The notes under the pieces were generated by a model, which saw nothing but the letters and a program-made list of their open reading frames with translations, had not been told where the DNA came from and ran no database searches. From Promethearchaeota archaeon (lineage in GTDB: Archaea; Asgardarchaeota; Lokiarchaeia; Sigyniarchaeales; SOKP01), in contig JAHPZA010000006.1 in assembly GCA_019058445.1 (NCBI GenBank), positions 1 through 64,000 of the forward strand: a DNA stretch of 64,000 bases, given 5' to 3'. Within the stretch, counting starts at the first letter, position 1; each line of letters begins with the position of its first letter. The position numbers and the translations under genes were made by a program. Of this stretch, positions 25,721 through 40,637 are shown one piece after another.

Positions 25721-25737
25721 TGAAAGAGATGTTTCAC
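25721..25737 (+). repeat. attL core TGAAAGAGATGTTTCAC
   Basis: Identical to 43355-43371. Confidence 0.93.
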
Positions 25738-25825: not shown

Positions 25826-26038
25826 ATGAAAATTTCCGAAGAAATGAAGTATAGGAATAAAATAAGAGAAATGAAAAACTTCTTAAAGCATTTAAATCAA
25901 TTACCCAATTATCCTAATGAACAGAGCAACATAACAGAAATAATGAATGGCTTCGGACATGTTGAGCTAAACGATTTGTTTGATACTTTAGAAGCTTTTA
26001 AAAATAAAATTGAATTTTACGATTTTCGAGGCGATTAA
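25826..26038 (+). CDS. Viral hypothetical protein
   Basis: 70-aa ORF starting the integrase operon. Confidence 0.6.
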   Translation: MKISEEMKYRNKIREMKNFLKHLNQLPNYPNEQSNITEIMNGFGHVELNDLFDTLEAFKNKIEFYDFRGD

Positions 26039-26042
26039 ACAA

Positions 26043-26180
26043 ATGGAAAAACCAAAATACGATAAGATTAAAACGCAAGATATACATTATATTAATGAAC
26101 TTAGACATAAAGAGTTTTTAATCGAAAATCGCTTAGTTAAAGAAGAAATAAAAGAAATGTTAATAGAGGTGATCCAATAA
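26043..26180 (+). CDS. Small viral protein (45 aa, not in ORF track)
   Basis: MEKPKYDKIK...LIEVIQ-stop fills the gap between neighbouring ORFs. Confidence 0.55.
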   Translation: MEKPKYDKIKTQDIHYINELRHKEFLIENRLVKEEIKEMLIEVIQ

Positions 26181-26669
26181 ATGACTAAATTAACAGAAGA
26201 TATACATCTAAGATTTACTGAAACGGAAAAACAAGATATAGTTAAAATGGCGGAAGAAACTAATATGAAAATTACAGAATTTTGTAGAAATGCTATTTTT
26301 AACCATATTAGGAGAATTGAAAATCCCGAATTATTTAAAGTGAAAAGTTCAATTAATTCCGCAGATCTTAATGAAATTATTTCCGAAGTTAAGGAAACAT
26401 CCGATATTTCAAATAGAATATTAGCAAAAACCAATTTAATGGAAATTATTGATAAAAAGCTTGATATAATTCATAAATATATAGTAGGCCCGTCAATAAG
26501 CACTAATAGGGATTTAATAACGGATTTGTTTAAAACTCATAAGACTTTATCTCTAAAGCAAATAATAGAGAAATTAGATTTAGATCCCGAATTGACAACC
26601 GATTTAGTTAAAATAATGCATAAAGAAGGAACATTAAAAACAAATTCTAGGGGGAGATACTATAAATGA
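26181..26669 (+). CDS. DNA-binding protein: N-terminal RHH plus C-terminal winged helix
   Basis: IHLRFTETEK..ITEFCRNAI (RHH-like); LSLKQII..MHKEGTL..GRY (wHTH-like). Confidence 0.65.
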   Translation: MTKLTEDIHLRFTETEKQDIVKMAEETNMKITEFCRNAIFNHIRRIENPELFKVKSSINSADLNEIISEVKETSDISNRILAKTNLMEIIDKKLDIIHKYIVGPSISTNRDLITDLFKTHKTLSLKQIIEKLDLDPELTTDLVKIMHKEGTLKTNSRGRYYK

Positions 26670-27571
26670 GTAATATAACAGATTTTACAAACAAGGAAAT
26701 AATTACTAAATATCTTAATCATTATAGACACTCAAAACAATCCCAAAACATGCGAAAAAGCTCATTAAACTATTTTTTTAGCGAAGATTACTTCGGTTAT
26801 GAAGGAGATATTAAAGATATTTCAAAATCCGATTTGTTTGATTATCATGACTACTTAAACCATAAAGAAGATATTAGTTTAACAACTAAGGAAAACAAAT
26901 GGCGAATATTAACGAGTTTTATACAATGGATTATGGAGTATTACGATGGTTTTTTAACTATTATTCCGTCAAAAACAGTTAGTTGGAAGCCTAATCATAA
27001 ACAAGCGAATTCAAACAAAAACGTTGTTCTTACTAAGGAAGAGATAAAAAAGATATGGAATTATTTAGAGCTAAATAACTTTAAATATTATTTAATCTTT
27101 AGGGTTTTTTCCGAAACGGGAGCACGAAAAAGTGAAATCATAGATGCTAAATATGACGATGTCAATATAGAAAAACGCTATATTAAAACTACTGGGAAAA
27201 AAGGAACTAAGATCTATTATATTTCAAAAGAACTGGCGGAATTATTGGAAATTCATATTAAAGAGCGAAAACCTCGAAATCCCAAACCTAAAAATCTATT
27301 TGTAACTAATCGTGGGAATAAATACAGAAGCAGGGCTTTTAACCTATATATACAAAAGCATATTAAAAACATCGGAATTGATAAACACGTTAGTTGTCAT
27401 ACTTTTAGAAGATCTCTAAATACAGAGCGAAAGAAAATGGGATGTAGTAATGAAGACAGAAAAATTCTAATTGGTCACGCAGTTCAAGATGTTAATATAA
27501 ACTCCTATGTGAAATTGAACTACAAGGATTTTATTAAAATGTTTGATAAATGGAATCCATATAAATTTTAA
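26666..27571 (+). CDS. Tyrosine recombinase / integrase
   Basis: TGARKSE, GKK, HTFRR, IGH, SY catalytic residues; stop/start overlap with upstream ORF. Confidence 0.95.
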   Translation: MSNITDFTNKEIITKYLNHYRHSKQSQNMRKSSLNYFFSEDYFGYEGDIKDISKSDLFDYHDYLNHKEDISLTTKENKWRILTSFIQWIMEYYDGFLTIIPSKTVSWKPNHKQANSNKNVVLTKEEIKKIWNYLELNNFKYYLIFRVFSETGARKSEIIDAKYDDVNIEKRYIKTTGKKGTKIYYISKELAELLEIHIKERKPRNPKPKNLFVTNRGNKYRSRAFNLYIQKHIKNIGIDKHVSCHTFRRSLNTERKKMGCSNEDRKILIGHAVQDVNINSYVKLNYKDFIKMFDKWNPYKF

Positions 27572-27910
27572 TAATTTTTTTACCCTATTTTTATACTATT
27601 TTATTAAATATTTTCCTGATTTTTATATTTTTGTCATTATTTTTAGCTTCTCGATGTATTCTATGAAGAGCTTAAGCGATATTTTTTTTCCATTTTTCTC
27701 CATTTCGATTTAAACTATCTTAAATGGAGATGATAAGATATTTTCTAGCGAAAAAGCGACATGTTTATCCGTATATTTCGCTTGATTCCTCTTATCCTGT
27801 GGGGAGATGTGGTTAATTTTTTGCGGAAAAGTTAAAATTACGTTATGTTTGATCGTACATATCCGTGAGGAGATATGTACAGGCGTACATATCGATAATA
27901 AACCTAATAG

Positions 27911-28205
27911 AGTCGCAGAATCTGCAACCCTAAAAAAAGATTCTAAACCCAAAGTCGACAAGGGAAAGTAAAGTAATATTTGATCCCAATCAATTTACTT
28001 TCTTGATTGCTTCTGTGTCTATTTTAGGTTTGACAGATTCTGTCTCTCCTAAACTCCAACTTGAGTATGTGCCTTTACTGTTGACTCCGACACCCCGAAT
28101 TTCTTAGCTGTCGCTTTAGTAAAGCGTTCAGCGGGTTTATCTACTTTCTTGATTGCTTCCTTGTCGATTTTAGGTTTATTTTCCCGTTTCGCAGATTCTG
28201 CGACT
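27911..28205. pseudogene. Rearranged fragments of a ParB-like HTH gene with three palindromic boxes
   Basis: VAESA..KPK(I/V)D cassette in three copies (one +, two -); FTKATAKKFGVSESTV HTH-like; 15-bp inverted repeat 27911-27925/28191-28205. Confidence 0.45.
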
Positions 28206-28393
28206 TGGGAAAATATAAAAATTTTTTGAGTGACAAAAATCTTTTCGCGTGACATATTTATCTCGCGTGACATTAACCAAATTGCAGAATAGTTTGAGGA
28301 AAAAAGCGAAATCGAAACATTTTTATAGTTACTTTGACTAGTATATGGTGAAGTATTACTAAATAATAAAAAGTAAAAAAAACCATGCAAGGT

Positions 28394-28402
28394 TTTAAAT
28401 AG
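28394..28402 (+). promoter_or_regulatory. TATA-like box of the RHH-TFB operon
   Basis: GCAAGGT-TTTAAATAG about 40 bp before ATG 28443. Confidence 0.55.
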
Positions 28403-28442
28403 ACTTTTTTTTTTATTTTTACTAGGTAAAAATTAGTAAAAA

Positions 28443-28574
28443 ATGAAATTATTGAATTTTAAAGTAACGGAAAAAATATACAAACAACTAAAAGAGTATA
28501 TAGAAAAACGTGGGCAAACCAAATCCGCAATTCTAAGAGAAGCTTTATTCGAATACTTAGAGAAGAATAGATAA
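28443..28574 (+). CDS. CopG-like ribbon-helix-helix protein (43 aa, not in ORF track)
   Basis: MKLLNFKVTEKIYKQLKEYIEKRGQTKSAILREALFEYL. Confidence 0.8.
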   Translation: MKLLNFKVTEKIYKQLKEYIEKRGQTKSAILREALFEYLEKNR

Positions 28575-28580
28575 GCTTCA

Positions 28581-29390
28581 ATGCATTGCGACGAATGTTC
28601 GGGCGCTATTAATTATATCGGAATCTGTGAAGAATGCGGATTAATTGATAACGAAATCCATAAAGAAAGTATGCTAGATTTAGATCCTATGAGTTTTAAT
28701 AAGAATGGTGAGCTTAAGAAAGATCATGGAATTTTTTATAAATCTAATATTCCGTGTATAGCAGTTACAACAAAAGTAAGTAGAAAAAACGCTAACAATT
28801 CCGATTTATTTAGAGCTTTAAAATGGGATGGAAATTACAAATGGGATATACAAAAATTCATGATTTTTAAAAAAGAAATTGAGTATATTTGCGAAAATTT
28901 AAACATAAAAAACGATTTGAAGTTTACAATCTTAGATATGGGAAAACGGATTTTGGGAAATCTAATCTTATCTGGGAAAAGGATTGAAGATATGGCGGGA
29001 GCAATTGTTTATTTGACGGCTAGAATTGAAGAATTGCCTATATTGATTGATGATCTTAAAGATTTAGAATACAAAAATACTTATCGTTATTACGTTTTCT
29101 TAGTTAAAAAAATGGGATATTTTAACATATTAAAAAACCCAAATCTGAGAAGATTTTTATATCGGTTTATAGTAGAATTAGAATTAAGTGAAAAAGTTGC
29201 GTTAGAATGTCTGAAAACGCTATTAAAATTAAAGCAAATTTCCGCGAAAATAAATATCAAATCTGCAAGTGTTATTTACTATGTTTGTAAAAAAAACGGA
29301 ATTAATATAACTCAAAATAAGATTTCCGAAGTTTGTAAATGTAGTGTGGTGCAAATGAGGGAAATAATAAAAATATTGAATAAAAAATGA
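28581..29390 (+). CDS. Virus-encoded TFB/TFIIB homologue
   Basis: CDEC..CEECG Zn ribbon; GKRIEDMAGAIVYLTAR and ASVIYYVC..ITQNKISEVCKCSVVQMR cyclin repeats. Confidence 0.85.
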   Translation: MHCDECSGAINYIGICEECGLIDNEIHKESMLDLDPMSFNKNGELKKDHGIFYKSNIPCIAVTTKVSRKNANNSDLFRALKWDGNYKWDIQKFMIFKKEIEYICENLNIKNDLKFTILDMGKRILGNLILSGKRIEDMAGAIVYLTARIEELPILIDDLKDLEYKNTYRYYVFLVKKMGYFNILKNPNLRRFLYRFIVELELSEKVALECLKTLLKLKQISAKINIKSASVIYYVCKKNGINITQNKISEVCKCSVVQMREIIKILNKK

Positions 29391-29539
29391 ATCCAAAAAA
29401 AATAAGAGAATGCCCAGTGTGCGGTTCAAAACACTTCTTCATAGCTGGATCATTAAATACGTACGGTTGGTTTACCGATATCATAATTTACTGTTATTCT
29501 TGTAAGAAATATCGCGGAATAATAGATACAGAAGGTTAA
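29387..29539 (+). CDS. Small Zn-finger protein (50 aa, not in ORF track)
   Basis: CPVC...CYSC; ATGA overlap with TFB stop. Confidence 0.7.
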   Translation: MNPKKIRECPVCGSKHFFIAGSLNTYGWFTDIIIYCYSCKKYRGIIDTEG

Positions 29540-29553
29540 GTATTTTTACAAAA

Positions 29554-29811
29554 ATGAAAGAATTGAATAAAGTTAAACTTATAGAAAAAATTGAGATGGG
29601 AATAGGCGTGAAGAATGGGGATATAGAACACTGTTTAAACGACGATAATATGTTTGATATAACAAGTAGAATTAAGGAAAATGAACATAATTGTAATCCC
29701 CTTTATATTACTATTCCTTTCTCTTTTCTCCTAAAGCGTTTTAACCTTAGAAGGAAAAATCGAGAATTAAAAATAGGTTTAGGGTTAAAAGTAACATATA
29801 AAGAGGATTAA
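29554..29811 (+). CDS. Viral hypothetical protein
   Basis: Co-oriented ORF in tightly packed operon. Confidence 0.6.
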   Translation: MKELNKVKLIEKIEMGIGVKNGDIEHCLNDDNMFDITSRIKENEHNCNPLYITIPFSFLLKRFNLRRKNRELKIGLGLKVTYKED

Positions 29812-29835
29812 ACATCCTCTATTTTTTTTTCAAAA

Positions 29836-30150
29836 ATGCCAGAGTTAAAAGAAATGCCAGAAATTATAAGATCTCAGAGATTAATAACCTATGATAATAA
29901 AAAAGTATGGGCGACGGAAAGTGTTTGTATGGATGTTAAATTTAATGGAGTGGAAAATTATTTCACGATAGATAATGCCCAGTCAGAAGCTACTAAGAAA
30001 ATCAATGGGATTTTGGATGAGCTAGATAAATTGATTGAGAAGATATATTTCGCGGGAAAATTTTATGGTGCAAATATGTTAAATTGCAAGGTTAAGATCG
30101 CCAAAATTAAAGAATTGTTGCCTGTTACGATAAAAGATGACGGAAGATAA
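29836..30150 (+). CDS. Viral hypothetical protein
   Basis: Co-oriented ORF in operon. Confidence 0.6.
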   Translation: MPELKEMPEIIRSQRLITYDNKKVWATESVCMDVKFNGVENYFTIDNAQSEATKKINGILDELDKLIEKIYFAGKFYGANMLNCKVKIAKIKELLPVTIKDDGR

Positions 30151-30571
30151 ATCAACATTAGAAATTACTAAATTTCCGCAGACTAAAAAGAATGATAGTA
30201 TAGATGCATTAGGAATGGAAATAAAACAATTGAAGGGAAATTTGATGGAAATTGAAAATTTGAAAAACGATTTAAAAATCATAAAACGATTATTCTATTT
30301 GATGATCTCATATAAAGAATTCAGAAATAACGAATTTCTTTATTTGATTCAAGATTTATTAATAGATAACAATGTAAGAAATGATAAAACCTACAAGAAT
30401 CATCTAATAGAAGTAAACCTAGATCAATTAAGGAAAGCAATTAAGAAGATTGAAGATTTTAAGGAGATAGAAGATTTAGGACCTCATGAAGTAGGATTAA
30501 AAATTCTAAGAGAAAATGAAACCCTAAAAGATCATATTAATTGGATGATTAGGGAAAATGACGGAGATTAA
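30137..30571 (+). CDS. Viral coiled-coil hypothetical protein
   Basis: Overlaps both neighbours; heptad-like pattern. Confidence 0.6.
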   Translation: MTEDKSTLEITKFPQTKKNDSIDALGMEIKQLKGNLMEIENLKNDLKIIKRLFYLMISYKEFRNNEFLYLIQDLLIDNNVRNDKTYKNHLIEVNLDQLRKAIKKIEDFKEIEDLGPHEVGLKILRENETLKDHINWMIRENDGD

Positions 30572-30953
30572 AGATATACCTTTTGACATTGAAAATTTGA
30601 ATCTCTTAGAGTTAATTGGAGGGAAGACAGCAGATCTCTCCAGATTTTTAGGAGTGAATGGAGACATTGTTTTTATTACGTGTATCTGGGACGGGTTAAC
30701 CAATTTTTATACCCGAATAGCAGATTATGATCAAGCTTTACAAGAAAAGGAATTAACAAGAAAACAACATTTTGTTAAAATTTGGAAATTAAAGAATGAA
30801 ATGTTAAACATGTTTTCCTCAATTTGCGACACGATATCAACTGTTCCAGAGTTTAATGAAATGATTGACGACGATACAAAAAGCAGTATAAAGAAATGGC
30901 GTGAAGCGTATAAGAGCTTTATTGAAAATACAGAAAAAGTAGTTAAGGAATAA
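30558..30953 (+). CDS. Viral hypothetical protein
   Basis: Overlapping co-oriented ORF. Confidence 0.6.
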   Translation: MTEIKDIPFDIENLNLLELIGGKTADLSRFLGVNGDIVFITCIWDGLTNFYTRIADYDQALQEKELTRKQHFVKIWKLKNEMLNMFSSICDTISTVPEFNEMIDDDTKSSIKKWREAYKSFIENTEKVVKE

Positions 30954-30991
30954 ATTAAATTCCTTTATTTTTTTTATTGTAGTGAGAAAAA

Positions 30992-31234
30992 ATGATGCAA
31001 AATATAAATTTAGAAAAAGATTTTAAGGGAGTTTATTATGAGGCATCTTCTAATAATACTTCTTATAATGACGCGATAAATTCCCTTATTTCTAAAATAA
31101 TGCAAACACTTAAAAACTCTATTGATCCTAAAGAGAAAAAAGCATCGATTGGATTGTTTGGGAATATAATAACAACCTTATCTATAAAGGATCAAGATTT
31201 TAAAGAAATAGAAATATTTGGAAGTATTAGATAA
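30992..31234 (+). CDS. Viral hypothetical protein
   Basis: Co-oriented ORF. Confidence 0.55.
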   Translation: MMQNINLEKDFKGVYYEASSNNTSYNDAINSLISKIMQTLKNSIDPKEKKASIGLFGNIITTLSIKDQDFKEIEIFGSIR

Positions 31235-31265
31235 ATAACTAAAAAAGAACGGGTAAGTGAAATTT

Positions 31266-31415
31266 ATGAAATTATGGTTTAGTGCGAATATATTGAATCG
31301 AATAAACAATATAAAACATAAGAATGAGACAGTAACGCAATTTATTAAAAGGGCTGTTGAGTATTATGTTTTGGAATGTGAACGTGAATATAATGAAAAT
31401 AAAAAAGACACCTGA
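31266..31415 (+). CDS. Small RHH-like protein (49 aa, not in ORF track)
   Basis: MKLWFS..ETVTQFIKRAVEYY. Confidence 0.55.
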   Translation: MKLWFSANILNRINNIKHKNETVTQFIKRAVEYYVLECEREYNENKKDT

Positions 31416-31731
31416 AGAGAATTATTATAAAAAACGCACAGAGTATATCCGTTTATTCATAATTGAGGATAAAAAAATAAATGAAATATCGGAAATTACG
31501 GGAGATTCAAAATCGAGGGCAAGGTATTTAATTTATAGTAAATGGGATTTAAAGAAAAAAGGAAATCCATTATATTTGATGTATAAGAATAGGAGAGAGG
31601 AAACGGATAAACGGAAAATTGAGAGATTACTTGAAGATGGGAAAACAAGAAAGGAGATTTATTCGAAGTTTAAAGAAAATTACAAAACTTTTTTGTCTTA
31701 TTGTAAGCGTTTAGGAGTTAGGGGAGACTGA
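31393..31731 (+). CDS. Basic double-HTH-like protein adjoining origin-like repeats
   Basis: KKINEISEITGDSKSRARY and GKTRKEIY..YCKRLGV; ATG at 31393. Confidence 0.55.
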   Translation: MKIKKTPEENYYKKRTEYIRLFIIEDKKINEISEITGDSKSRARYLIYSKWDLKKKGNPLYLMYKNRREETDKRKIERLLEDGKTRKEIYSKFKENYKTFLSYCKRLGVRGD

Positions 31732-32210
31732 TTTTTGTCACATCGCGATCTCTTAGGAAATTGAAGAGACTGATTTTTGTCACATCATTTTCACTTTTTT
31801 CCTAAAACTAAAAATGGTTTTTTTGATCGAATTTGGTATTTAGGAGTTTTGAAGTCTTCATAAAATAATGAAGAGGAAAAATCGTCACATGATTTTTGCG
31901 GGAAAAATGTGGGAAAAAGTGGGGAAATGAAATATTTGACGAGATGGGGTTGTCTAAACAAAAATTATGAAAATTTAGTTTCTAGGAAAAAATGAAACTT
32001 ATAATATATAATATATAACTTTCATATTTATCTAGAAACTAAAATTATAAGTAGAGGCGTTTTAAAGCTATTTTAGAATTTTGGGTAAGGTTTACGTGGG
32101 AAAAATGTGGGAAAAAGTGGGTTAGTTTTCGGTTTTTAGTGAAATGAATGTGACATTTTTCAGTCTTCTGTATTCTGTTAAATCTCTAAGCGATCTAATA
32201 GCCAAATTTA
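31724..32210. repeat. Origin-like region: iteron pair, G-rich direct repeats, central AT-rich palindrome
   Basis: 21-bp repeats 31724-31744/31766-31786; 24-bp repeats 31900-31923/32098-32121; inverted arms 31974-31985/32032-32043. Confidence 0.7.
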
Positions 32211-32376
32211 AATTGAAAAAATGGTTTAATTTTTAAAATCCATAAATGATGGGAAGAACGGGTTTAGGGTATTTTTTTGGACACTTCGACTTATTTTAAT
32301 CATAAAAAAGCCTGTTTTCTCCCATCATTTTATTATTTTTCCGTAATGAGATGACTGAAAAGCGGGATTGGTAAGT

Positions 32377-32385
32377 TTTAAATAG
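32377..32385 (+). promoter_or_regulatory. TATA-like box of putative late transcript
   Basis: TTTAAATAG about 22 bp before the structured segment at 32407. Confidence 0.55.
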
Positions 32386-32406
32386 TCATTTTTTTTGGTT
32401 GTAATT

Positions 32407-32649
32407 GACAAATTTATGACTGAGATTGATCGCGTTAAGAGGGAATTCATACTTATTTCAAAAATGAATTCAAGATCGAAAGATCTTTTTGAAGAATATA
32501 TTTAAAGAGGCATGTTGACGTACAGTCACTTGGAAATTGAAATATCTTTCGAGAGATCTTTTGTTTGTTCGAATTCTACTTTTTTTATCACCTGTCATAA
32601 ATTGTCTTGTTCCATGTGAACAAAATCGGGACGATCTCATCAATCGTCC
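32407..32649 (+). ncRNA. Candidate structured RNA / long 5' leader
   Basis: Nested complementary segments 32407-32420/32594-32606 and 32479-32499/32542-32561 (G-U type mismatches) plus two small hairpins. Confidence 0.5.
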
Positions 32650-32656
32650 TTAAAAA

Positions 32657-33151
32657 ATGTTTTCCAGAGTAAAAGAAACGCGAAAATCGGAAGTAATCGC
32701 CAGAGAAGGGCAACCAAGAGTAGATGTGGACAGACCTGAAGTTATTGGCGGGCCTGTGGCGAGTTCTTGGATAAGTAGCTTGTATTATGATTTAGAAAAT
32801 GAAGTAGCTACTATGAATACATTCGATTTAGGAGAAAAAGGAATAGATTATCGCAGTTATGACTTTCCAGAATTTCCTCCCGCAGAATTTGATGATTGGT
32901 GGCTTGCAATGAGTAAAGGCACATTTTATCATGAAAGGGTTAAGAATCTGGGATATCTAAAGCGTAGAATGTTATTGAAAAGGGTTTTGGCTAAAGTAAA
33001 GGCTAGAAAGTATAGAAGGCGAGAAAATAGGAAGTTTAAGTATTATTCCGACGCGTTTAAAGAAGGATTGCCAGTTAAACAAAAAGGAACGGGAAAAAGA
33101 GCAATTCCGTATTCGAAAAGGAAATTAAAGCAAAAAGGGTTATTTGAGTAA
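32657..33151 (+). CDS. KTSC-domain protein with basic C-terminal tail
   Basis: VASSWISSLYYD...YDFPEFPPAEFDDWWLAMSKGTFYHERVK follows KTSC pattern. Confidence 0.75.
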   Translation: MFSRVKETRKSEVIAREGQPRVDVDRPEVIGGPVASSWISSLYYDLENEVATMNTFDLGEKGIDYRSYDFPEFPPAEFDDWWLAMSKGTFYHERVKNLGYLKRRMLLKRVLAKVKARKYRRRENRKFKYYSDAFKEGLPVKQKGTGKRAIPYSKRKLKQKGLFE

Positions 33152-33161
33152 AAAGTTAGAG

Positions 33162-33332
33162 CTTAGCCTTTTTCCGCAAGCATTCGAATTCAGGAAGCCA
33201 CGTTAACCATTTCCGTAAACCCATGAATTACGGTAATAGAACGCCCACGTTTAGCGTTCAAGAAAATTGAAAATAAATGAAAATTTTTCATGGGTTTTCT
33301 AAGATAAGAGAAGAGAAGCTAAGAACGGAAAT
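33162..33332. ncRNA. Second candidate structured element
   Basis: AAACCCATGAA/TTCATGGGTTT, GAACGC/GCGTTC, ATTTCCGT/ACGGAAAT pairings. Confidence 0.4.
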
Positions 33333-33538
33333 TATAACTATGTGAACTTCGCAAAATGATGATTTCACGCATATCTCATAGAATACGAGAAGATAACCCA
33401 GAAATAGCAAAAATAAAGAATTGAGTAAAAGAATCGTTTAAATCGTGTTTAAACGTTATTAGAAGGTTAGGTTACTTTTAATAGAAATTAACGGTTACAA
33501 ACGATTTAAAAATATAGGTATTAAGAGGGTATAAAAAT

Positions 33539-33697
33539 ATGAATAGAAGGTTAGAGAATAAAGAATTTGAAGGAGTAGCATTAGAGGGTAATAGCCTAGA
33601 GGATGGAATTATTAGAGAGTTTACGTTAAGTAATAGAATGGGCGTACTAAGAACATCCGGTGGGGATTTGGTAGAATATGAATATATTGTTAGATAA
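33539..33697 (+). CDS. Small viral protein (52 aa, not in ORF track)
   Basis: MNRRLENKEF...YIVR-stop, overlaps next ORF. Confidence 0.45.
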   Translation: MNRRLENKEFEGVALEGNSLEDGIIREFTLSNRMGVLRTSGGDLVEYEYIVR

Positions 33698-33884
33698 AGA
33701 AGATATTGAAGAGTTATTGAAAATAGGTATTACTAAGGTTGAAGTCTTCGAAACTAGTGGTTTAGTAGAATGTATAGGTACAGGCGCAGGAAAGCCAATA
33801 ATTTTAGATTTGGAGAAAATGGCAGGTACGAGGCTTGATATACCATTAAAAGAGGATTTGACAGAATATGTGGGAGAGGCTTAG
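33678..33884 (+). CDS. Viral hypothetical protein
   Basis: 68-aa ORF upstream of terminase. Confidence 0.5.
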   Translation: MNILLDKEDIEELLKIGITKVEVFETSGLVECIGTGAGKPIILDLEKMAGTRLDIPLKEDLTEYVGEA

Positions 33885-34014
33885 AAAACTTGATCTGTGA
33901 GAGATTGGTTCTTACGGTTTTACCTTTTAGATCACCAACCTGCAAAATGCCACTAGAAGCGTTCTACTCCCCATTTATGAAAATCAACATAAACGGAAAC
34001 ATCCAAAAATAAAT

Positions 34015-35505
34015 ATGAGTACTAGACAAGTCCAAATCTTCAAGGTCTTAGAGGAAAACCCAGAATTAGCGGAACGTAGTTCAAATGCCGAACTTTACGC
34101 CTTATTACCTAAAGTTCCTAAAAGTTCTATCCGTTTTAACAAAAAGCTATTTAAGGAACGTCTAAAACGCAAAAACGAGGAGTTACAGCTCTTCATAGAA
34201 AACAACCAGAAGTTCATACAACCGCCCACACAGAACGCTTACAAATGGCAAATTGACGCGTTTAACAAGATCATGGAGCATTTCGCTACTAAGCTTCTTG
34301 TACCGCGAGATCACGGTAAATCCTACTTAATCTGTTGGTTAATCGAATACTTATTAGATTTGAAGGCTACAAGCGTTCTTTTACTAGGTTGGACAGATCG
34401 GCGAAAAGATATCGCAGAATGGGTTTATAGTTATTGTATTCGCAAGGATTTAATAGAATCCGTTAGAAGCGAATTTTGGTTTACACTTAAGAACGGCTCT
34501 AAATTCCGTTGTTTTCTTACTTCGGAAAAGGCTATTCTAGGCTTCCACGGGGACGAGAAGGGTATGGTTCTTATCATAGATGATCCTATTGACGATTCTT
34601 GGCGCACAGAACCGTGGAGAGAAGCCAAGCTCGAACGTCGCTATAAATCAACGATTTCAAACATAAATCCGTTAAAGATACTAATTAGCGGAACGCGGAA
34701 ATGTGAAGGTGACTTTTTCGATTTCATAGATGATACGTACGGAAATAGTGATTACGATTATTATGATTACACACGTAAGCCATACTATGAGGAGAACGGT
34801 TCTAAAAAGCTTCTATGCCCAGAGAGATGGACACTAGCTAAATTAGAGAAGAAACGCGTAGAAATAGGAGAATATTGGTATGCAGCGGAATGGATGCAAG
34901 ATCCTCATCCCATAGAGGCAGGGATCTTAACTAAACCGACGTTTGACATACACGCGGGTAAATCTGCTTATTCACATTGCGCAATAAGCGTGGATTCCGC
35001 TACAACGATAAAGAAAACGTCAGACTTTACTGCAATCATTACAATCTTAAAGAAGCGAAACACTTTAGAGTATTTTGTACTCAGGGCTTTAGTAGATCAT
35101 TTAGATTTCGAGGAAATTCTAAAATCGATAGAGAAGGCTTATAGATATGTTTTAGAGAAGTTTATAGATATCAATATAATTGTTCCAATTGAGAAAAATG
35201 CGGGAGGAAATTATTTAATTCAATCATCTAAGAGACGTGGTTATACATTTAGTTCACACATCATTCCTGTTCATAGTAGTAAAGCCAAATTCATTAGAAT
35301 TGAATCCGCATTAGAAGTACCGTTAAGAGAAGCTACACTTATATTTTCTGAAGGTTTAAAAAATACAGAATTAATAACGGAAATTCTAACATTCCCAAAT
35401 AGCCGTAAACTCGACGCGATAGATGGATTAGCCATAGGAATAAAAGAACTTGAAAATAAACATTCAGCATATACATTTGATATATTAAAAGCAAATGCAT
35501 TTTAA
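34015..35505 (+). CDS. Terminase large subunit
   Basis: VPRDHGKS Walker A, LIIDDP Walker B, ISGT, WMQDP, SVDSA..SDFTA, DAIDG nuclease acids. Confidence 0.92.
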   Translation: MSTRQVQIFKVLEENPELAERSSNAELYALLPKVPKSSIRFNKKLFKERLKRKNEELQLFIENNQKFIQPPTQNAYKWQIDAFNKIMEHFATKLLVPRDHGKSYLICWLIEYLLDLKATSVLLLGWTDRRKDIAEWVYSYCIRKDLIESVRSEFWFTLKNGSKFRCFLTSEKAILGFHGDEKGMVLIIDDPIDDSWRTEPWREAKLERRYKSTISNINPLKILISGTRKCEGDFFDFIDDTYGNSDYDYYDYTRKPYYEENGSKKLLCPERWTLAKLEKKRVEIGEYWYAAEWMQDPHPIEAGILTKPTFDIHAGKSAYSHCAISVDSATTIKKTSDFTAIITILKKRNTLEYFVLRALVDHLDFEEILKSIEKAYRYVLEKFIDINIIVPIEKNAGGNYLIQSSKRRGYTFSSHIIPVHSSKAKFIRIESALEVPLREATLIFSEGLKNTELITEILTFPNSRKLDAIDGLAIGIKELENKHSAYTFDILKANAF

Positions 35506-35507
35506 AA

Positions 35508-35915
35508 ATGAAATTAAAAAATATTATTAATAAAATTAAGACTGGATATAAACGCTTTAGAGAGTACTTCTATAAAGGAGAAGTGGTGTTTATGACTAAT
35601 GATAAAGCCCATTTAGAGGCAATTTATACAAGTTTATCCGTTTTAGGAATAGATATTAAATATATAGGTAATAATGAATATATGTTTAAAATCTCCGCAA
35701 AAAAGGAAAAACATTATAAAAAGCTTGTAAATACAATTCTGGAAGATAAGGAGAGTTTAAAAGAGAAGTCTATGCGTTTATTTGATAAAGAACTTAAAAT
35801 AAAAGAATTAAATGAAAAATTAGCTTTTCTTAAAGGATTATTTGAATCAGAAAAAGCTATTATTTTTGAAGAGAATTTCAATGAAGATATGAAGGCTAAA
35901 TTAGATGCAATATAA
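35508..35915 (+). CDS. Viral coiled-coil protein between TerL and portal
   Basis: Co-oriented, K/E-rich helix. Confidence 0.6.
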   Translation: MKLKNIINKIKTGYKRFREYFYKGEVVFMTNDKAHLEAIYTSLSVLGIDIKYIGNNEYMFKISAKKEKHYKKLVNTILEDKESLKEKSMRLFDKELKIKELNEKLAFLKGLFESEKAIIFEENFNEDMKAKLDAI

Positions 35916-37077
35916 AACAGTAAATAGAGGCAGTTTTGATCGGTATTATGAAAACCAATATGCACCTAGTTTACTAAAAGATTATTATACTTCCGTAAAT
36001 GACGCAGAAACTAGGGAAAAGAGATCGGGGATTGATCCTTTAGCTTCAGCATTAACTTTACGTGTCGGAAAGCTTTTAACCATGAATCCCCCTAAATTCT
36101 TGGATGAGAATAAAGAAGAGATCAAGAAAATAAGAGAAGAATGGGTTAAAAATGATTATGATAGCGTTTTCCGTGAAGCGATAATAAGTACACGTACTCA
36201 TGGGTTTTGCGTGACAGAAAAACTGAAAAATTCTTTCGCGGGGAAAAACTTTTTAGTACATAATCTGGCGAATGGAATTATACGTGTAAATTATGAAGAT
36301 CGTTTGAATATAAAGAGTTATGATATTCTCCCAAAAATGGAAGAAGGCGAGAGGATTTCGAGTTATGCTATTCCAAAACAACGTGAATTAATGGGAAAAA
36401 ATGCTTTTCACTATGAAATAGGAAGGAAAAAATATAACCAACAAGGCGAGAGTTCTTTAAAACCAATTTGGGCCCAATTAGTACGCGCAAATGAGATAAT
36501 TGACAGTATGGCGGAATATGACTCGCGTATCGGTAAGGGCTGGCTATATGTTAAAGTAGATCCCGCATTATATAATAAAGATATTTCAAAACTTAATACT
36601 GTCGTGCGAAAAATGAATCGTCGACGTTTTATGATTCTAAAAAGTACAAAAGAATCGCCCACGGATATTAATTTATTAACAACGACTAGCACGATTGATT
36701 TTTCTAGAGATCTAGAAACTTTAGTGGGTATTATAGCTTCACAGACTGGATTGCCTACTCGGTGGTTTCTTGGTTCACCAAAAGGATTCATTTCTTCCGC
36801 AAAAGAAGATAGATATCAAGTTTATGCAACTTTAAAAAGTATATTTGCGGAATATAAAGACTGGATTAGGGGATTTATTGAGAAATTCTATGAAAGTGGA
36901 GAAGCTATAAACAATAAGATTAAAGAAATTGAATTTGACGACGAAGGCGTTTTAGAAGAAATAGGAAGACAAATGGAAAACGGTGTAGCTTTTGATAACA
37001 ATCAAATACAAGAATCAGGTAAAACTGAGAAACAAATTAAATATTTAGCTAATAAAGAACAATTAAAGGAGAGCTAA
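35905..37077 (+). CDS. Portal protein (DUF1073-like)
   Basis: Position after TerL; GESSL and IASQTGLPTRWFLGSPKG..ED..Y resemble DUF1073 portals. Confidence 0.8.
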   Translation: MQYKTVNRGSFDRYYENQYAPSLLKDYYTSVNDAETREKRSGIDPLASALTLRVGKLLTMNPPKFLDENKEEIKKIREEWVKNDYDSVFREAIISTRTHGFCVTEKLKNSFAGKNFLVHNLANGIIRVNYEDRLNIKSYDILPKMEEGERISSYAIPKQRELMGKNAFHYEIGRKKYNQQGESSLKPIWAQLVRANEIIDSMAEYDSRIGKGWLYVKVDPALYNKDISKLNTVVRKMNRRRFMILKSTKESPTDINLLTTTSTIDFSRDLETLVGIIASQTGLPTRWFLGSPKGFISSAKEDRYQVYATLKSIFAEYKDWIRGFIEKFYESGEAINNKIKEIEFDDEGVLEEIGRQMENGVAFDNNQIQESGKTEKQIKYLANKEQLKES

Positions 37078-37079
37078 TT

Positions 37080-37409
37080 ATGGAAGAATTAATTATAGAT
37101 GTAGAAAATATTGATGGAGAGAATTTAAAAATCGAACTTCCGTTTTTTAAGCCTTATATCGTTAATAATGAAGATTTTCTTAATATGGTTAGGTATTTAA
37201 AAAAGAAATTTGATTTAAATATTCCGTCTGAAGCGAATAAAGCTTTAAAACATTGGTCAGATTTAGAAGAATCGATGGTACAAGAATCTAAAGAATTTGT
37301 ACCATATGAAAGCGTTCATTTTAAGCATCATTTTAAACTAGAAGGGCTTAAACCTTTTGATATTGAGGAGTTTTATAAATCTCATTATAAAACTACTAGA
37401 GGATGGTAA
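37080..37409 (+). CDS. Viral hypothetical protein in head module
   Basis: Between portal and protease. Confidence 0.6.
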   Translation: MEELIIDVENIDGENLKIELPFFKPYIVNNEDFLNMVRYLKKKFDLNIPSEANKALKHWSDLEESMVQESKEFVPYESVHFKHHFKLEGLKPFDIEEFYKSHYKTTRGW

Positions 37410-37410
37410 A

Positions 37411-38139
37411 ATGACTCATTTAGAGGATTACGATTATATAGGAACAGCATGCTTAGGTGACGTTAAATACGACGACGGTTTTGATAAATGGGATGATATC
37501 AAGAAAGTAATTAAAAATAAGAAAGAAATTATCATAAAACCCAATCATGAAAGTAAAGATATCGTCGGAAGGGTCAAGTTTTTTGAGCTGTGCGATAAAA
37601 ATAAAGAATTGAAAATAGGAATTAATAGAAAGGATTTATCCGTTGGTTTAGATGCTTTTAATGGAGTTTCTCCCCAATTTTTAACCAATGATAAAGGCAA
37701 AATAGTAGATATAACACATTTTGCGATTGGGAATAGTTTTAAACCGAAGTGTGATAAATCAGTATGTTATATTGAAAAAAATCGAGGTAAACAAAAGAAA
37801 ATGGATGATTTAGAAAAAAAAATTGAAGATTTAAAAGCTGAAAATAAAAAACTTAAAGCGAAGTATTTAGAACTAGAAAATAAGATGCTAGAGACTGATA
37901 ATAAAGCTTTTGAAGAATTCTTAAAAGAAAAAAACAATAATAATAAGTCTAAAGATAAGGATAAAGATGGGAGTAATCCTAAAGATAAGGATAAAGATAA
38001 AGATTTAGACTTAACACCAAATCAAGATATCGAGCAAGATATCGAGACAAAACCCAAAAATAAGTTTGAATATAAAGGATTTTTGGGAAATACAACTAAA
38101 AACACAGAAAATTTAATCGCAAAAAGAAAAATAAAATAA
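37411..38139 (+). CDS. Prohead protease-scaffold fusion
   Basis: NH..IVG, GVSPQF, THFAI protease-like motifs; coiled-coil and KD-repeat C-terminus; ATG at 37411. Confidence 0.7.
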   Translation: MTHLEDYDYIGTACLGDVKYDDGFDKWDDIKKVIKNKKEIIIKPNHESKDIVGRVKFFELCDKNKELKIGINRKDLSVGLDAFNGVSPQFLTNDKGKIVDITHFAIGNSFKPKCDKSVCYIEKNRGKQKKMDDLEKKIEDLKAENKKLKAKYLELENKMLETDNKAFEEFLKEKNNNNKSKDKDKDGSNPKDKDKDKDLDLTPNQDIEQDIETKPKNKFEYKGFLGNTTKNTENLIAKRKIK

Positions 38140-38183
38140 ACTATTGATTGAAAATTAAAAATTAAATAAAAAGGTAAACGATA

Positions 38184-38636
38184 TTGGCAAATACTAAAAT
38201 TAGTGATATTGCAAATAGTGTAAGCTTAGGTATAAATCCAACAGAGAGCGTTAAAGCCTCAGAGGCTTCCTTAAAAGCAGGTATGGGCGTCTATCATTAT
38301 AACGAGACGGGCGTAAAAGCAATAGAGGGAAGTGCAGCATTGGTTAGCGGTTTTGCGGGAGTTTTAAAAGAACATTATTATTCTGGTCTTGATGCAACAT
38401 TAACTAATGGATCAGACTATGAGCTTATCAAAAGAGGTCCATGTGCTGTGTTTATTGATGATCCAGGTAAAACTTTTGGACCAGGTGTGGAGATCTGGGT
38501 AAGTGGTGCAACTGCTGGGAGTTTTGGTTTATTAACTGATCGTGACTTTATTGCTCTTTCGGGAGCTAGCGCAGTTGGTAAAACTATCGATACTATTAAC
38601 TCAGGCGATACCGTTGCTATGGTTAATCTTTATTAA
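38184..38636 (+). CDS. Capsid decoration/cement protein
   Basis: G/A/V-rich beta protein directly before MCP. Confidence 0.65.
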   Translation: MANTKISDIANSVSLGINPTESVKASEASLKAGMGVYHYNETGVKAIEGSAALVSGFAGVLKEHYYSGLDATLTNGSDYELIKRGPCAVFIDDPGKTFGPGVEIWVSGATAGSFGLLTDRDFIALSGASAVGKTIDTINSGDTVAMVNLY

Positions 38637-38648
38637 AGGTGATTTAAG

Positions 38649-39566
38649 ATGGTAAGATTAACAAGGCAAGAACTTAAAAGTATCGATGACATCGTTAAAC
38701 GTGTTCTTCGTGAGCCTCCAATCTTAGAGGCTTTCGGCATTAGACAAGTTGCTAATGGTAAAAGAGAACATATGTTTTTAAGCGCGTCAGATATGCCCAC
38801 ATCTAATATTGGTGCAGATTTCTCTTATGATGCTAGGAACTACCCTATGAGAATCCCTACTGGAACAAAACTAACATTTATAACCTTTCCTGTTCAAATT
38901 AAAAGAACGGATATTGATGCAAGCGAAAGTGCGGGAATTGAATCTCTCGCCGTAACGGCTGAAATTGAAGCAAACGCAGCAATAATGAAGGATGTTGAGG
39001 ATGTTGTTCTTCATGGCAATAATGCTCGCGGATCTAAAGGTATGTGCAATTATGATGGTTTAAATCATTATGGTGCAGATGCTAGTAAAGCCTTAACAAC
39101 TCATGGGAGTTTTTTTACCCAGTTGGAAGGGGCTATCTCACAGGTTCGCGAAAATCATATTAAACCCGGATCAGAAGGCTACGATCTAATAATTAGTCCT
39201 GGGATTTTTCCCGAATTAAGGAATAATTGGGTTACTGGGATTTATAATGAGTATAAGCAATTTAAGGAAACCTATACTGAAGGTCCAGCTCCAGTTATCG
39301 GTAATATTATCGAGACTGACGAGATCTGCACGGACAGTAATGGGAACGCTACAGGTTGCTTCACAGATACCCAAGGTTTCATTGTCGGGAAATTAGGACA
39401 GCCAAATAATTACATCGCTGAATCGTACGAACTTCACCGCGATTTGATTCCAGGAGAATTTGAAAGTGATGTAAATTATGCGCTACGTTGGGCTGGCGGA
39501 TTTATTCCGAAAGAACCGAAGGCTTTATGCTTAGTCACTGGGTTAACGACAACCACAGCATATTAA
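38649..39566 (+). CDS. Major capsid protein, HK97 fold (encapsulin/DUF2184-like)
   Basis: 305 aa, strong SD AAGGTGA, VEDVVLHGNNARGSKGMCN, YDLIISP, C-terminal PKAL. Confidence 0.82.
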   Translation: MVRLTRQELKSIDDIVKRVLREPPILEAFGIRQVANGKREHMFLSASDMPTSNIGADFSYDARNYPMRIPTGTKLTFITFPVQIKRTDIDASESAGIESLAVTAEIEANAAIMKDVEDVVLHGNNARGSKGMCNYDGLNHYGADASKALTTHGSFFTQLEGAISQVRENHIKPGSEGYDLIISPGIFPELRNNWVTGIYNEYKQFKETYTEGPAPVIGNIIETDEICTDSNGNATGCFTDTQGFIVGKLGQPNNYIAESYELHRDLIPGEFESDVNYALRWAGGFIPKEPKALCLVTGLTTTTAY

Positions 39567-39586
39567 GTACGGCTAATTAGCTTAAA

Positions 39587-39627
39587 GATTGGAAAACGTG
39601 CGTGTTTTTCCGATCAAATTTTTTTTT
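39587..39627 (+). terminator. Hairpin plus T-run after MCP
   Basis: GATTGGAAAA...TTTTCCGATC then 9 T. Confidence 0.65.
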
Positions 39628-39654
39628 ATTTTAGAAAAATGAAAATTAAAACTT

Positions 39655-40002
39655 TTGTTGGTGATGTTAAAATTGGTGTATAGTAAATTAACGGATATAG
39701 AAAATAGGTTACCATTTGATATAAACGCAAATTCAATTCCATCGAGTAGTCAATTAACGGGCGTACAACTTCAATCAAACTTATTCATTAATGGATTTAT
39801 AGGGAGACCTTCTGGTTTAACGGAAAATACTGGAGCTTTAAGAATAATAGAGACCGATATTGCAGTAAATTATTGTATGTATTGGCATGATCCCGAATTC
39901 TCGCCTTTTTTTAGGTTTACACGCGATCAGAGGATGATTTTAGATAATTATCGTAGCGATCAATGTGTAAGATTGGGAAAATTAGGTTTTGATAGGGATT
40001 AA
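39655..40002 (+). CDS. Head-tail adaptor-like protein
   Basis: Position after MCP; YSKLTDIE..FINGFIG pattern of gp15/gp6-like adaptors. Confidence 0.55.
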   Translation: MLVMLKLVYSKLTDIENRLPFDINANSIPSSSQLTGVQLQSNLFINGFIGRPSGLTENTGALRIIETDIAVNYCMYWHDPEFSPFFRFTRDQRMILDNYRSDQCVRLGKLGFDRD

Positions 40003-40004
40003 AA

Positions 40005-40418: not shown

Positions 40419-40637
40419 AAAAAGCAAAAATGAAGAGGTGTCCGCTACACCTCTTAAAAACAATCCATAACAATCCAAGAACGGAACGGATTAAACTAGA
40501 AAAAGATTGACGGTTTTTCTTAAAATTGCTGTTCGCAAAACAAGGAAAAAACAAAAAGAAAAGTACTAGGTTAAGGTTAAATTAATCCGTTCTTCAAAAA
40601 TGAATAAAAAAATAAATATAAACAGGTGAAATGAAAT

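What the first reader, a model, noticed from the sequence alone, without database searches (positions are those of the whole stretch)
32407..33332. KTSC protein sandwiched between two structured non-coding elements ahead of the terminase
Seen: an ORF-poor 240-nt segment begins about 22 nt after a TATA box and folds back as nested stems, with G-U type mismatches on the + strand. Two small hairpins end 7 nt before the KTSC ATG. A second multi-stem segment follows the gene. Known: KTSC domains are nucleic-acid-binding modules. Inference: an undescribed viral RNA-protein module, such as a late-gene switch, antitoxin-like RNA or packaging-associated RNA, lying where a small terminase would be expected.
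Basis: partly seen in the sequence, partly recalled or inferred. Interest (0 to 1): 0.8.

Follow-up and report, generated by a model that had tools for sequence, protein, structure and literature searches.

The report
KTSC packaging-module gene with hairpin-rich flanks
A small gene at the head of the DNA-packaging genes of a virus integrated in an Asgard-type archaeon encodes a genuine KTSC-domain protein that related viruses always keep beside their packaging motor and portal genes. The folded non-coding stretches on either side of it are only modestly unusual and are not shared with those relatives, so they look like ordinary control DNA, not a new RNA-protein machine.

Summary
Observation partly confirmed. 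The TATA-like octamer, the ORF-poor 250 nt, the nested inverted repeat (32407-32606) and two small hairpins ending 6-7 nt before the ATG are all present. The upstream segment folds better than shuffles on the + strand (z -2.7 to -2.9). Against this AT-rich genome's own background that is only the top 0.4-1.5% of windows. The downstream segment (33152-33332) is not distinguishable from background.

The ORF is a real KTSC-domain protein: its family profile hits solved KTSC structures at E 6e-13 and its predicted fold agrees. In eight loci (six distinct lineages) its homologues lie next to TerL and/or portal. In all seven related loci the gene is tightly packed, with no non-coding flanks.

No Rfam match, no extra genomic copies, no RNA run listed and no close relative for a covariation test were found. 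The RNA-protein module reading is therefore unsupported, though not excluded.

Best reading: this is the first gene of the late/packaging operon of a 17.6-kb verdandivirus-like provirus, a KTSC accessory in the small-terminase position, flanked by lineage-specific control DNA. One lead remains: the closest relative also has an 8-bp hairpin 6 nt before its first late ATG. The scan had already noted this same stretch and its neighbours.

The parts
31732..32400 (.). Left part of the 925-nt ORF-poor gap. It has an origin- or control-like repeat architecture: two 20-nt direct repeats plus an inverted copy, two 24-31-nt direct repeats 198 nt apart, and a 76-nt AT-cored palindrome at 31971-32046. A second nested inverted-repeat domain lies at 32157-32361.
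   Evidence: the repeat finder families D1, D4, D5, I1, I2, I5, I16. The palindrome ranks 4th of 6390 windows. It matches itself in reverse in the own-genome search.
32377..32384 (+). TATA-like octamer TTTAAATA, 22 nt before the nested repeat
   Evidence: the pattern's frequency in the window equals the chance expectation
32389..32396 (+). T8 run between the TATA-like box and 32407. It is a possible stop signal for transcripts coming from the left.
   Evidence: the reading as an archaeal oligo-T terminator is inference from general knowledge
32407..32606 (+). Nested inverted repeat: an outer 13-bp stem (32407-32420 with 32594-32606) around the long hairpin
   Evidence: No further copies in the 4.6-Mb genome.
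32466..32576 (+). 111-nt imperfect hairpin built from palindromic hexamers: GAATTC three times, AGATCT twice. The 10-nt palindrome AAAGATCTTT occurs at 32479, with a 9-of-10 copy at 32551.
   Evidence: z -2.90 on + and -1.29 on -; 5 G-U pairs and no A-C mismatch; motif positions
32580..32586 (+). T7 run 4 nt after the long hairpin, giving a terminator- or attenuator-like arrangement
   Evidence: T runs of 7 or more are about ten times denser in this gap than in the late genes, but they also occur inside coding sequence.
32607..32650 (.). Two short perfect hairpins or palindromes (6 bp and 8 bp). The second ends 6-7 nt before the ATG.
   Evidence: z -3.3 (+) and -3.6 (-). The sister locus L013 has an 8-bp hairpin in the same position (L013:100-121, z -4.4).
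32657..33151 (+). KTSC-domain protein, 164 aa: KTSC core about residues 29-96, a long basic helix 99-135, and a basic C-terminal tail with a PYSKR motif
   Evidence: synteny
33152..33340 (.). The second 'structured' segment. Its only notable feature is an exact 11-bp inverted repeat, 33220-33230 with 33287-33297.
   Evidence: z -1.4 and -2.0; ordinary against the genomic background
33430..33515 (+). Stronger + strand hairpin just upstream of ORF52, outside the finding's coordinates
   Evidence: z -4.17 on + (0 of 200 shuffles), -1.8 on -. It ranks only 242nd of 6390 against the genomic background.
33539..33884 (+). Two small overlapping ORFs of 52 and 68 aa with similar 5' ends. No homologue was found in the related loci.
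   Evidence: (repeat D2)
34015..35505 (+). Large terminase subunit (TerL)
   Evidence: phrog_38 at E 2.4e-39; 79 homologues, the best 49% identical
35905..37077 (+). Portal protein
   Evidence: weak Pfam Phage_portal_3 match; 52% identical to the L013 portal and 37% to the L006 portal

Best explanation
The stretch is the start of the late (packaging and head) gene block of a 17.6-kb integrated head-type virus of an Asgard-like archaeon. The 17-nt att repeats lie at 25721 and 43355.

The ORF is a genuine KTSC-domain protein. In this virus lineage it is a fixed member of the packaging module. It sits directly upstream of TerL (window, L013) or between TerL and portal (L001, L006, L007, L008, L009, L010).

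I infer that it is an accessory of the packaging motor. It takes the place, and perhaps the role, of the missing small terminase. Its parts would work as follows: a KTSC core as the nucleic-acid or motor contact, a long helix for self-association, and a basic tail.

The non-coding stretches on either side are lineage-specific control DNA, not an RNA partner of the protein. They continue the origin-like repeat region on the left. They carry promoter-, operator- and terminator-type inverted repeats and T runs.

Only the start-proximal 8-bp hairpin (32628-32650) has any comparative support. It most likely acts at the promoter/transcription-start region or at the 5' end of the late mRNA.

Shown here: domain identity, synteny, the presence of the repeats and their statistics. 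Inferred: the packaging role, and the DNA-level or 5'-end role of the repeats.
For: KTSC identity:
- The family profile hits solved KTSC chains 4rgi (E 6e-13), 7x8c and the HerA C-terminus 8wiv.
- The AF2 model's best Foldseek matches are 4rgi and 7x8c, with target TM-scores of 0.64-0.65.
- The L006 homologue passes Pfam KTSC at E 4e-15.

Packaging-module membership:
- tblastn synteny shows the gene next to TerL and/or portal in all 8 loci that carry it (6 distinct lineages), across two TerL and two portal clades.

Flanks not conserved:
- Related KTSC loci have no non-coding flanks (same calls).
- The flanks have no DNA similarity to the upstream regions of 8 relatives and no coding similarity.
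- There are no extra copies in the genome.
- The two flanks share no k-mers.

DNA-level character:
- The arms are made of self-palindromic hexamers and are at once direct and inverted repeats (families D7, I13, I20).
- The small hairpins fold equally well on both strands.
- The adjacent 31732-32400 region is repeat-rich in an origin-like pattern.
- A relative (L015) also has a 240-nt palindrome with repeats in its ORF-poor stretch before TerL.

Start-proximal hairpin:
- It occurs in the window and in the sister locus L013. None of 13 other start-proximal stretches in relatives has one.
Against: - The 111-nt hairpin and the 33430-33515 hairpin beat shuffles only on the + strand. All their wobble positions are G-U on +. 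This is what an RNA-level element would show.
- No biochemical function is known for any KTSC domain, so the packaging role rests on gene position alone.
- TerL relatives L015-L020 package without a KTSC gene, so the protein is not universally needed.
- Promoter, operator and terminator roles are read from consensus-like motifs that are common by chance in 30% G+C DNA.
Confidence: 0.5

Rival explanations
1. Cis-acting RNA leader or attenuator. Transcription starts near 32407 from the TATA-like box. The RNA folds into the long hairpin, which is followed by a U7 tract, and most transcripts stop there. Read-through, or an alternative fold using the outer stem, switches on the KTSC and late genes. 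This is a late-gene switch analogous in logic to a phage late-promoter terminator.
For: - The TATA-like octamer lies 22 nt upstream.
- The hairpin 32466-32576 has z -2.90 on + but only -1.29 on -, with 5 G-U pairs and no A-C mismatch.
- A T7 run begins 4 nt after the hairpin.
- The 3' arm of the outer stem lies beyond the T run, so two alternative folds are possible.
- A second + strand-specific hairpin lies at 33430-33515.
Against: - It is not conserved in any relative, not even the sister locus L013, where an ORF fills the corresponding space.
- It ranks only 96th of 6390 windows against the genome background.
- The + strand folds better everywhere here for compositional reasons.
- TATA-like octamers and T runs are at chance frequency for this DNA.
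- No Rfam family matches.
Confidence: 0.2
2. DNA packaging-recognition site (pac or cos). The palindromes around the KTSC gene are the sites where the KTSC protein, acting as the recognition subunit, marks viral DNA for the terminase. This would parallel phages whose pac or cos sites lie in or beside the small-terminase gene.
For: - The position is immediately upstream of the packaging genes.
- The KTSC gene is in the small-terminase position.
- Palindromic sub-sites (AAAGATCTTT and a 9-of-10 copy) are repeated 72 nt apart.
- The small palindromes show no strand preference.
Against: - The flanks share no recurring motif.
- No such repeats flank KTSC genes in the relatives.
- No virion DNA ends or read pile-ups are available. 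The DNA contigs that were laid on the stretch show no termini here.
Confidence: 0.12
3. No function. The inverted repeats are chance or decaying sequence in a non-coding gap of a provirus that may be degenerating.
For: - The statistics are modest against the genomic background.
- The downstream segment is ordinary.
- There is no conservation.
Against: - The shuffle z-scores of -2.7 to -3.3 are unlikely all to be chance.
- The sister locus has a hairpin in the same position.
- The provirus sequence is identical in four samples of one study, and its late genes are intact.
Confidence: 0.12
4. Free-standing small RNA or RNAs that work with the KTSC protein as an RNA-protein module (antitoxin-like or packaging-associated RNA).
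For: The + strand folding bias. Conjectures in papers that KTSC binds RNA (PMC8541194, PMC7824862).
Against: - The related KTSC genes have no flanking non-coding DNA at all.
- The second element is not structured beyond background.
- No Rfam hit.
- No toxin-like partner gene is present.
Confidence: 0.06

Closest known systems
KTSC domain family (Pfam PF13619; solved structures 4rgi of Yersinia pestis YPO2434 and 7x8c of Methanolobus vulcani)
   Same: The family profile matches at E 6e-13 to 7e-12. The predicted four-strand-plus-helix core superposes on these structures. The conserved SS-I, Y and SKG positions are present.
   Different: The window protein has an 8-residue insertion in the core and scores below Pfam's cut-off on its own. 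It also carries a 65-residue basic helix and tail. Its nearest homologues form a small, mostly un-annotated clade of about 15 sequences with basic N- or C-terminal extensions.
Small terminase subunit (TerS) of tailed phages
   Same: The gene lies directly upstream of TerL in the window's lineage. The protein is small, with a putative nucleic-acid-binding N-terminal domain, a long central helix and a basic C-terminal tail. This mirrors the three-part TerS layout.
   Different: There is no helix-turn-helix domain. There is no sequence or PHROG match to any TerS. In other relatives the gene lies between TerL and portal, the slot of lambda gpW-type head-completion proteins. Oligomerisation and TerL binding are untested.
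C-terminal arm of the HerA translocase in the SIR2-HerA defence system (8wiv; PMC11472057)
   Same: A KTSC-like module is physically attached to a ring-shaped DNA translocase. The profile match is E 7e-12 to residues 624-696. This parallels a KTSC gene lying beside the TerL translocase.
   Different: It is fused to the translocase instead of standing alone. It is bacterial and belongs to a defence system, not a packaging system. In that structure the arm contacts a neighbouring subunit; no nucleic-acid contact is described.
Verdandiviruses (tailed Asgard viruses; bioRxiv 10.1101/2021.07.29.453957)
   Same: Genome of about 20 kb or less, with an HK97-type head module. Related KTSC loci come from the same sediment data sets (Ga0114925, WOR). 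TerL is 30% identical to that of a Lokiarchaeota virus.
   Different: That paper names no small terminase and does not mention KTSC. Membership of this provirus in the family was not tested by phylogeny here.
Hairpin-plus-U-tract terminators and attenuators, and operator palindromes at archaeal promoters
   Same: A long hairpin is followed by T7. Perfect 6-8-bp palindromes lie between a TATA-like element and the start codon.
   Different: There is no experimental start or stop site and no known regulator. Motifs of this kind are frequent by chance in 30% G+C DNA.

Membership tests
KTSC domain (PF13619) | Match to the Pfam model above the gathering score | tested here: inconclusive
   The window protein scores 17.5 bits against a cut-off of 25 (E 0.0035). 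Homologues L006 (55.7 bits) and, per precomputed hits, L013 pass.
KTSC domain (PF13619) | Profile-level similarity to proteins with solved KTSC structures | tested here: met
   Profile A3 against the PDB: 4rgi at 6.2e-13, 7x8c at 7.2e-12, the 8wiv C-terminus at 7.2e-12
KTSC domain (PF13619) | KTSC fold (small beta sheet packed on a helix) | tested here: met
   The AF2 core, residues 29-96, has pLDDT 89-93. Top Foldseek hits are 4rgi and 7x8c with target TM-scores of 0.64-0.65, although E-values are only 0.03-0.2.
Small terminase (TerS) | Gene adjacent to and co-oriented with TerL | tested here: met
   In the window the gene lies 864 nt upstream, with two small ORFs between. In L013 it lies 5 nt upstream. 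In L001, L006, L007, L008, L009 and L010 it lies downstream of TerL.
Small terminase (TerS) | Sequence or profile similarity to known TerS families | tested here: not met
   No PHROG or Pfam terminase-small hit
Small terminase (TerS) | Ring oligomer, specific binding to pac/cos DNA, stimulation of TerL | not testable with these tools
   This needs biochemistry. The model shows only a long helix at residues 99-135.
Any Rfam RNA family | Covariance-model match at or near the gathering score | tested here: not met
   The only hit is MIR529 at 21 bits against a gathering score of 75 (E 0.12). It lies outside the element.
Structured functional RNA (general) | Folding beyond shuffled and genomic background | tested here: inconclusive
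   The upstream segment has z -2.7 to -2.9 on + but ranks 9th of 2550 and 96th of 6390 in the genome background. The downstream segment is not significant.
Structured functional RNA (general) | Covariation in homologous loci | not testable with these tools
   No sequence relative of either flank was found in the own genome, in 60 relatives' genomes, or in viral and metagenome contigs. The four DNA runs carry identical sequence.
MITE / small transposable element | Several copies sharing terminal inverted repeats, with target-site duplication | tested here: not met
   There is a single copy in the 4.6-Mb genome. Matches to the terminal repeat equal the reversed-pattern control. No duplication is seen at the ends.

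The most novel reading that the evidence does not exclude
In a lineage of Asgard-archaeal head-type viruses a KTSC-domain protein has replaced the helix-turn-helix small terminase as the recognition subunit of the packaging motor. It acts through the palindromes or hairpins at the head of the late operon, either as a pac-site binder on DNA or as a translational or transcriptional operator on the start-proximal hairpin. That would give the KTSC domain its first assigned function.
Probability: 0.15. Interest if true: 0.6.

Novelty: new member of a known kind. Interest (0 to 1): 0.3.

Why it matters
The proposed RNA-protein module would have been a new kind of viral regulator, but the evidence does not carry it. 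What remains is useful though modest.

The KTSC domain has solved structures but no tested function. Here it turns out to be a constant neighbour of the terminase and portal genes in a poorly known group of Asgard-archaeal viruses, for which I found no small terminase described. That gives a concrete, testable idea for both questions: what KTSC does, and how these viruses recognise their DNA for packaging.

The result also warns that in G+T-rich coding strands of AT-rich genomes, fold-back structures with G-U wobbles are common background.

Tried and rejected
- Rfam at a permissive threshold gave only a chance microRNA hit.
- MITE idea: no other copy of the DNA or of its 14-nt terminal repeat occurs beyond the control count.
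- Covariation could not be tested. The protein is absent from 60 related genomes and from the species-representative genomes. Viral and metagenome scans gave only relatives of 40% identity or less. The upstream regions of 8 related loci share no DNA similarity with the window's flanks.
- Six-frame peptides of both flanks and of ORF52/ORF68 have no credible match in the related loci.
- The two flanks share no more 8-10-mers than shuffles do. TTCGAATTC occurs in both flanks but is not enriched in the window.
- Sequencing runs: no RNA holder is listed.
- Laying contigs of four DNA runs from one study showed identical sequence and no informative variation or ends in the region. One 21-nt-sided joint, 26010 to 42182, is too weak to use.
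- Complex prediction of TerL with the KTSC protein gave no verdict, score 0.00.
- The long proteins P0007 and P0015 that matched residues 55-97 are PAS-repeat sensors, which I judge spurious. No fused or longer forms were found.
- KTSC genes in deposited phage genomes are few (6 records) and were not seen to be tied to terminase genes (contexts not inspected).
- I considered that related contigs all begin a fixed distance upstream of TerL, which would hint at a genome end. I dropped this after the homology starts proved inconsistent.
- Energies of the mirrored structure on the - strand were not usable, because non-canonical pairs are not penalised.
- A two-sequence alignment of the window and L013 leaders is near random, so the two hairpins cannot be called homologous.

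Full report
**Setting**

The window is archaeal chromosome. It encodes AglB/STT3, aEF-1alpha, the PriS and PriL primase subunits, PCNA and RNA polymerase subunit A'. Its genome of 4.6 Mb is in 10 contigs.

Between a 17-nt direct repeat at 25721 and 43355 lies a 17.6-kb integrated virus. It carries:
- a NikA-like gene, a tyrosine integrase and a TFIIB-like gene;
- a run of small ORFs;
- a 925-nt ORF-poor gap (31732-32656);
- the finding's ORF (32657-33151);
- a 388-nt gap and two small ORFs;
- TerL (34015-35505, phrog_38 at E 2e-39);
- the portal (35905-37077) and an HK97-type capsid gene.

Earlier notes of this scan describe the same element as a Lokiarchaeial, verdandivirus-like, tail-less provirus. 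I checked the att repeat and the TFB call myself, but not the host assignment.

**The observation**

- TTTAAATA lies at 32377-32384.
- There are only very short ORFs up to 32656.
- An outer 13-bp stem (32407-32420 with 32594-32606) encloses a 111-nt imperfect hairpin (32466-32576). The hairpin has 42 pairs, 5 of them G-U.
- Two short perfect hairpins follow. The second ends 6-7 nt before the ATG.

By dinucleotide shuffles the 250-nt segment has z -2.74 on the + strand and -1.47 on the - strand. The 111-nt hairpin has -2.90 and -1.29. The pair of small hairpins has -3.3 and -3.6.

I then asked how unusual this is for this particular DNA. I folded every 250-nt window (step 50) and every 110-nt window (step 20) of the 64 kb on both strands and regressed energy on composition. 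The upstream segment ranks 9th of 2550. The hairpin window ranks 96th of 6390, alongside many windows inside ordinary genes.

The + strand folds 10-20 kcal/mol better than the - strand throughout the region, including inside the KTSC coding sequence. This is because the + strand is G+T-rich. The G-U wobble argument for RNA is therefore weaker than it looks. The strand-specific z-scores of the long hairpin do leave some signal.

The second segment (33152-33340) is not distinguishable from chance. Its z is -1.4 and -2.0, and it is ordinary against the background. Its one notable feature is an exact 11-bp inverted repeat.

A stronger + strand hairpin lies further right, at 33430-33515 (z -4.17), outside the finding's limits.

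**The protein**

On its own the ORF is below Pfam's KTSC threshold.

Exhaustive searches found only about 15 relatives. They share invariant GQP, V-SSWI, Y, W and A-SKGT positions. A profile of the family hits the solved KTSC structures 4rgi and 7x8c and the C-terminal arm of a HerA translocase (8wiv) at E 6e-13 to 7e-12.

The AlphaFold model has a confident KTSC core (residues 29-96), a long basic helix (99-135) and a tail. Its best structural matches are again 4rgi and 7x8c. The KTSC call is correct.

The statement that KTSC domains are known nucleic-acid binders is not correct as it stands. The papers I could read only postulate RNA binding (PMC8541194, PMC7824862) or call the domain DNA-binding without a test (PMC9503650). 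In the HerA structure the KTSC-like part lies within the C-terminal arm domain, which contacts the neighbouring subunit (PMC11472057).

**Relatives and gene order**

This is the most informative result. By tblastn and ORF maps:
- The closest relative, L013 (TerL 49%, portal 52%, capsid 53% identical), has a 118-aa KTSC gene ending 5 nt before TerL. Its C-terminal tail resembles the window's (PYGKR against PYSKR).
- In L006 and L010 the order is TerL, KTSC, portal.
- In L001/L002, L007, L008 and L009 a TerL-like gene, KTSC and a portal of a second clade follow each other, with overlapping or abutting stops and starts.

So in 8 loci (6 distinct lineages) that mix two TerL and two portal clades, the KTSC gene is always inside the packaging module.

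Two further points follow. First, no relative has non-coding DNA on either side of the gene. In L013 a 60-aa ORF fills the space upstream. Second, a group of TerL relatives (L015-L020) has no KTSC gene but does have 380-850 nt of ORF-poor DNA before TerL. In L015 this includes a 240-nt palindrome with repeats. Long repeat-rich gaps before the packaging genes are thus a habit of these viruses, independent of KTSC.

**What the flanks are**

They have no relatives:
- no second copy in the genome, and no excess of the terminal repeat, so the element is not a MITE;
- no DNA or coding similarity to any related locus;
- no motif shared between the two flanks;
- no Rfam family.

The arms of the long hairpin are built from self-palindromic hexamers (GAATTC three times, AGATCT twice). 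They are at the same time direct and inverted repeats of each other (families D7, I13, I20). The palindrome AAAGATCTTT and a 9-of-10 copy lie 72 nt apart. That pattern is what reiterated binding sites for a dimeric DNA-binding protein look like.

The segment also continues, without a break, a region to its left (31732-32400). That region has direct repeats, an inverted copy, and a 76-nt AT-cored palindrome that ranks 4th of 6390 windows. This is an origin- or control-region architecture.

On the other hand, a T7 run starts 4 nt after the long hairpin, and a T8 run lies just after the TATA-like box. From general knowledge of archaeal oligo-T termination, a transcript started at 32407 would tend to stop at 32586. 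That makes a 180-nt attenuator-type RNA conceivable. It also makes a simple 250-nt structured 5' UTR less likely.

T runs are about ten times denser in this gap than in the late genes, but they also occur within coding sequence. The signal is therefore weak.

**One comparative lead**

I folded the 70 nt before the first late-module start codon in the window and in relatives. Only the window and its sister L013 have a strong hairpin there.
- Window: z -3.3, an 8-bp stem ending 6-7 nt before the ATG.
- L013: z -4.4, a perfect 8-bp stem of different sequence ending 6 nt before the ATG.
- Both are followed by an A-rich spacer.
- The other 13 stretches tested reach at best z -2.3.

Both hairpins are perfect palindromes that fold on either strand. 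Each lies about 20 nt after a TATA-like AT-rich element. They could therefore be operators at the transcription start, or 5'-terminal mRNA hairpins. The two leaders do not align, so homology is unproven. This is the part of the finding most worth an experiment.

**Verdict**

The interpretation as a novel RNA-protein module is not supported, although it cannot be excluded, because neither transcription data nor close relatives exist.

The best-supported reading (about 0.5) has two parts:
- a KTSC-domain accessory protein of the packaging module, sitting in the small-terminase position;
- lineage-specific control DNA on either side of it.

The rivals are:
- an attenuator-type leader RNA (0.2);
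- a pac or cos site (0.12);
- no function (0.12);
- free-standing small RNAs partnered with KTSC (0.06).

The modest novelty lies in the constant association of a KTSC protein with TerL and portal in Asgard-type viruses. I did not find this described in the papers searched.

Noticed in passing
window 28581-29390: The provirus encodes a TFIIB/TFB-like protein. The Pfam TFIIB repeat matches at E 1e-12.
   Followed up: partly
window 31724-32210: Origin-like architecture: two 20-nt direct repeats with an inverted copy at 32148, two near-identical 24-31-mers 198 nt apart, and a 76-nt palindrome with an AT core at 31971-32046. The palindrome is the 4th most stable 110-nt window of the 64 kb. No replication-initiator gene was recognised in the provirus.
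   Followed up: partly
window 25721-25737 and 43355-43371: An exact 17-nt direct repeat, TGAAAGAGATGTTTCAC, brackets the integrase-to-head-gene block. These are the likely att sites of a 17.6-kb provirus.
   Followed up: partly
window 27800-28270, 14200-14330, 43220-43370, 15050-15400, 16000-16430: These stretches are the most stable folds of the 64 kb against the composition-corrected background (z -3.5 to -5.3, some on both strands). The first lies between the integrase and TFB genes. The third lies at the right att site. None was examined further, and ARAGORN finds no tRNA anywhere in the window.
   Followed up: no
window 42104-42378: Four copies of the palindrome AAGATCTT lie within 275 nt, near the end of the last + strand ORF of the late block (41494-42183). 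The same motif forms the core of the long hairpin upstream of the KTSC gene (32480). The window holds 8 copies against 4.3 expected.
   Followed up: partly
L015:7152-7991 (GCA_019057795.1 contig JAHLWS010000078.1): A related provirus without a KTSC gene has an 840-nt ORF-poor stretch before TerL. It contains a 240-nt region that is 70% self-complementary, and several 17-39-nt repeats. Parts of it are conserved in L016 (87% over 60 nt, 75% over 142 nt).
   Followed up: partly
window 33536-33572 and 33675-33711: The two small ORFs between the KTSC gene and TerL begin with 78% identical 37-nt stretches. They may be paralogues. No homologue was found in related loci.
   Followed up: partly
window 33895-33917: A hairpin plus T run on the + strand, right after ORF68 and 100 nt before TerL. 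It is terminator-like, which would split the 'late operon' into two transcription units.
   Followed up: no
window 26010 / 42182 (run X4): One low-depth contig joins 26010 to 42182, skipping 16.2 kb, and another joins 31485 to 42183. Only 20-21 letters lie on the shorter side of each joint. This may be an empty site, a variant element or an artefact.
   Followed up: no
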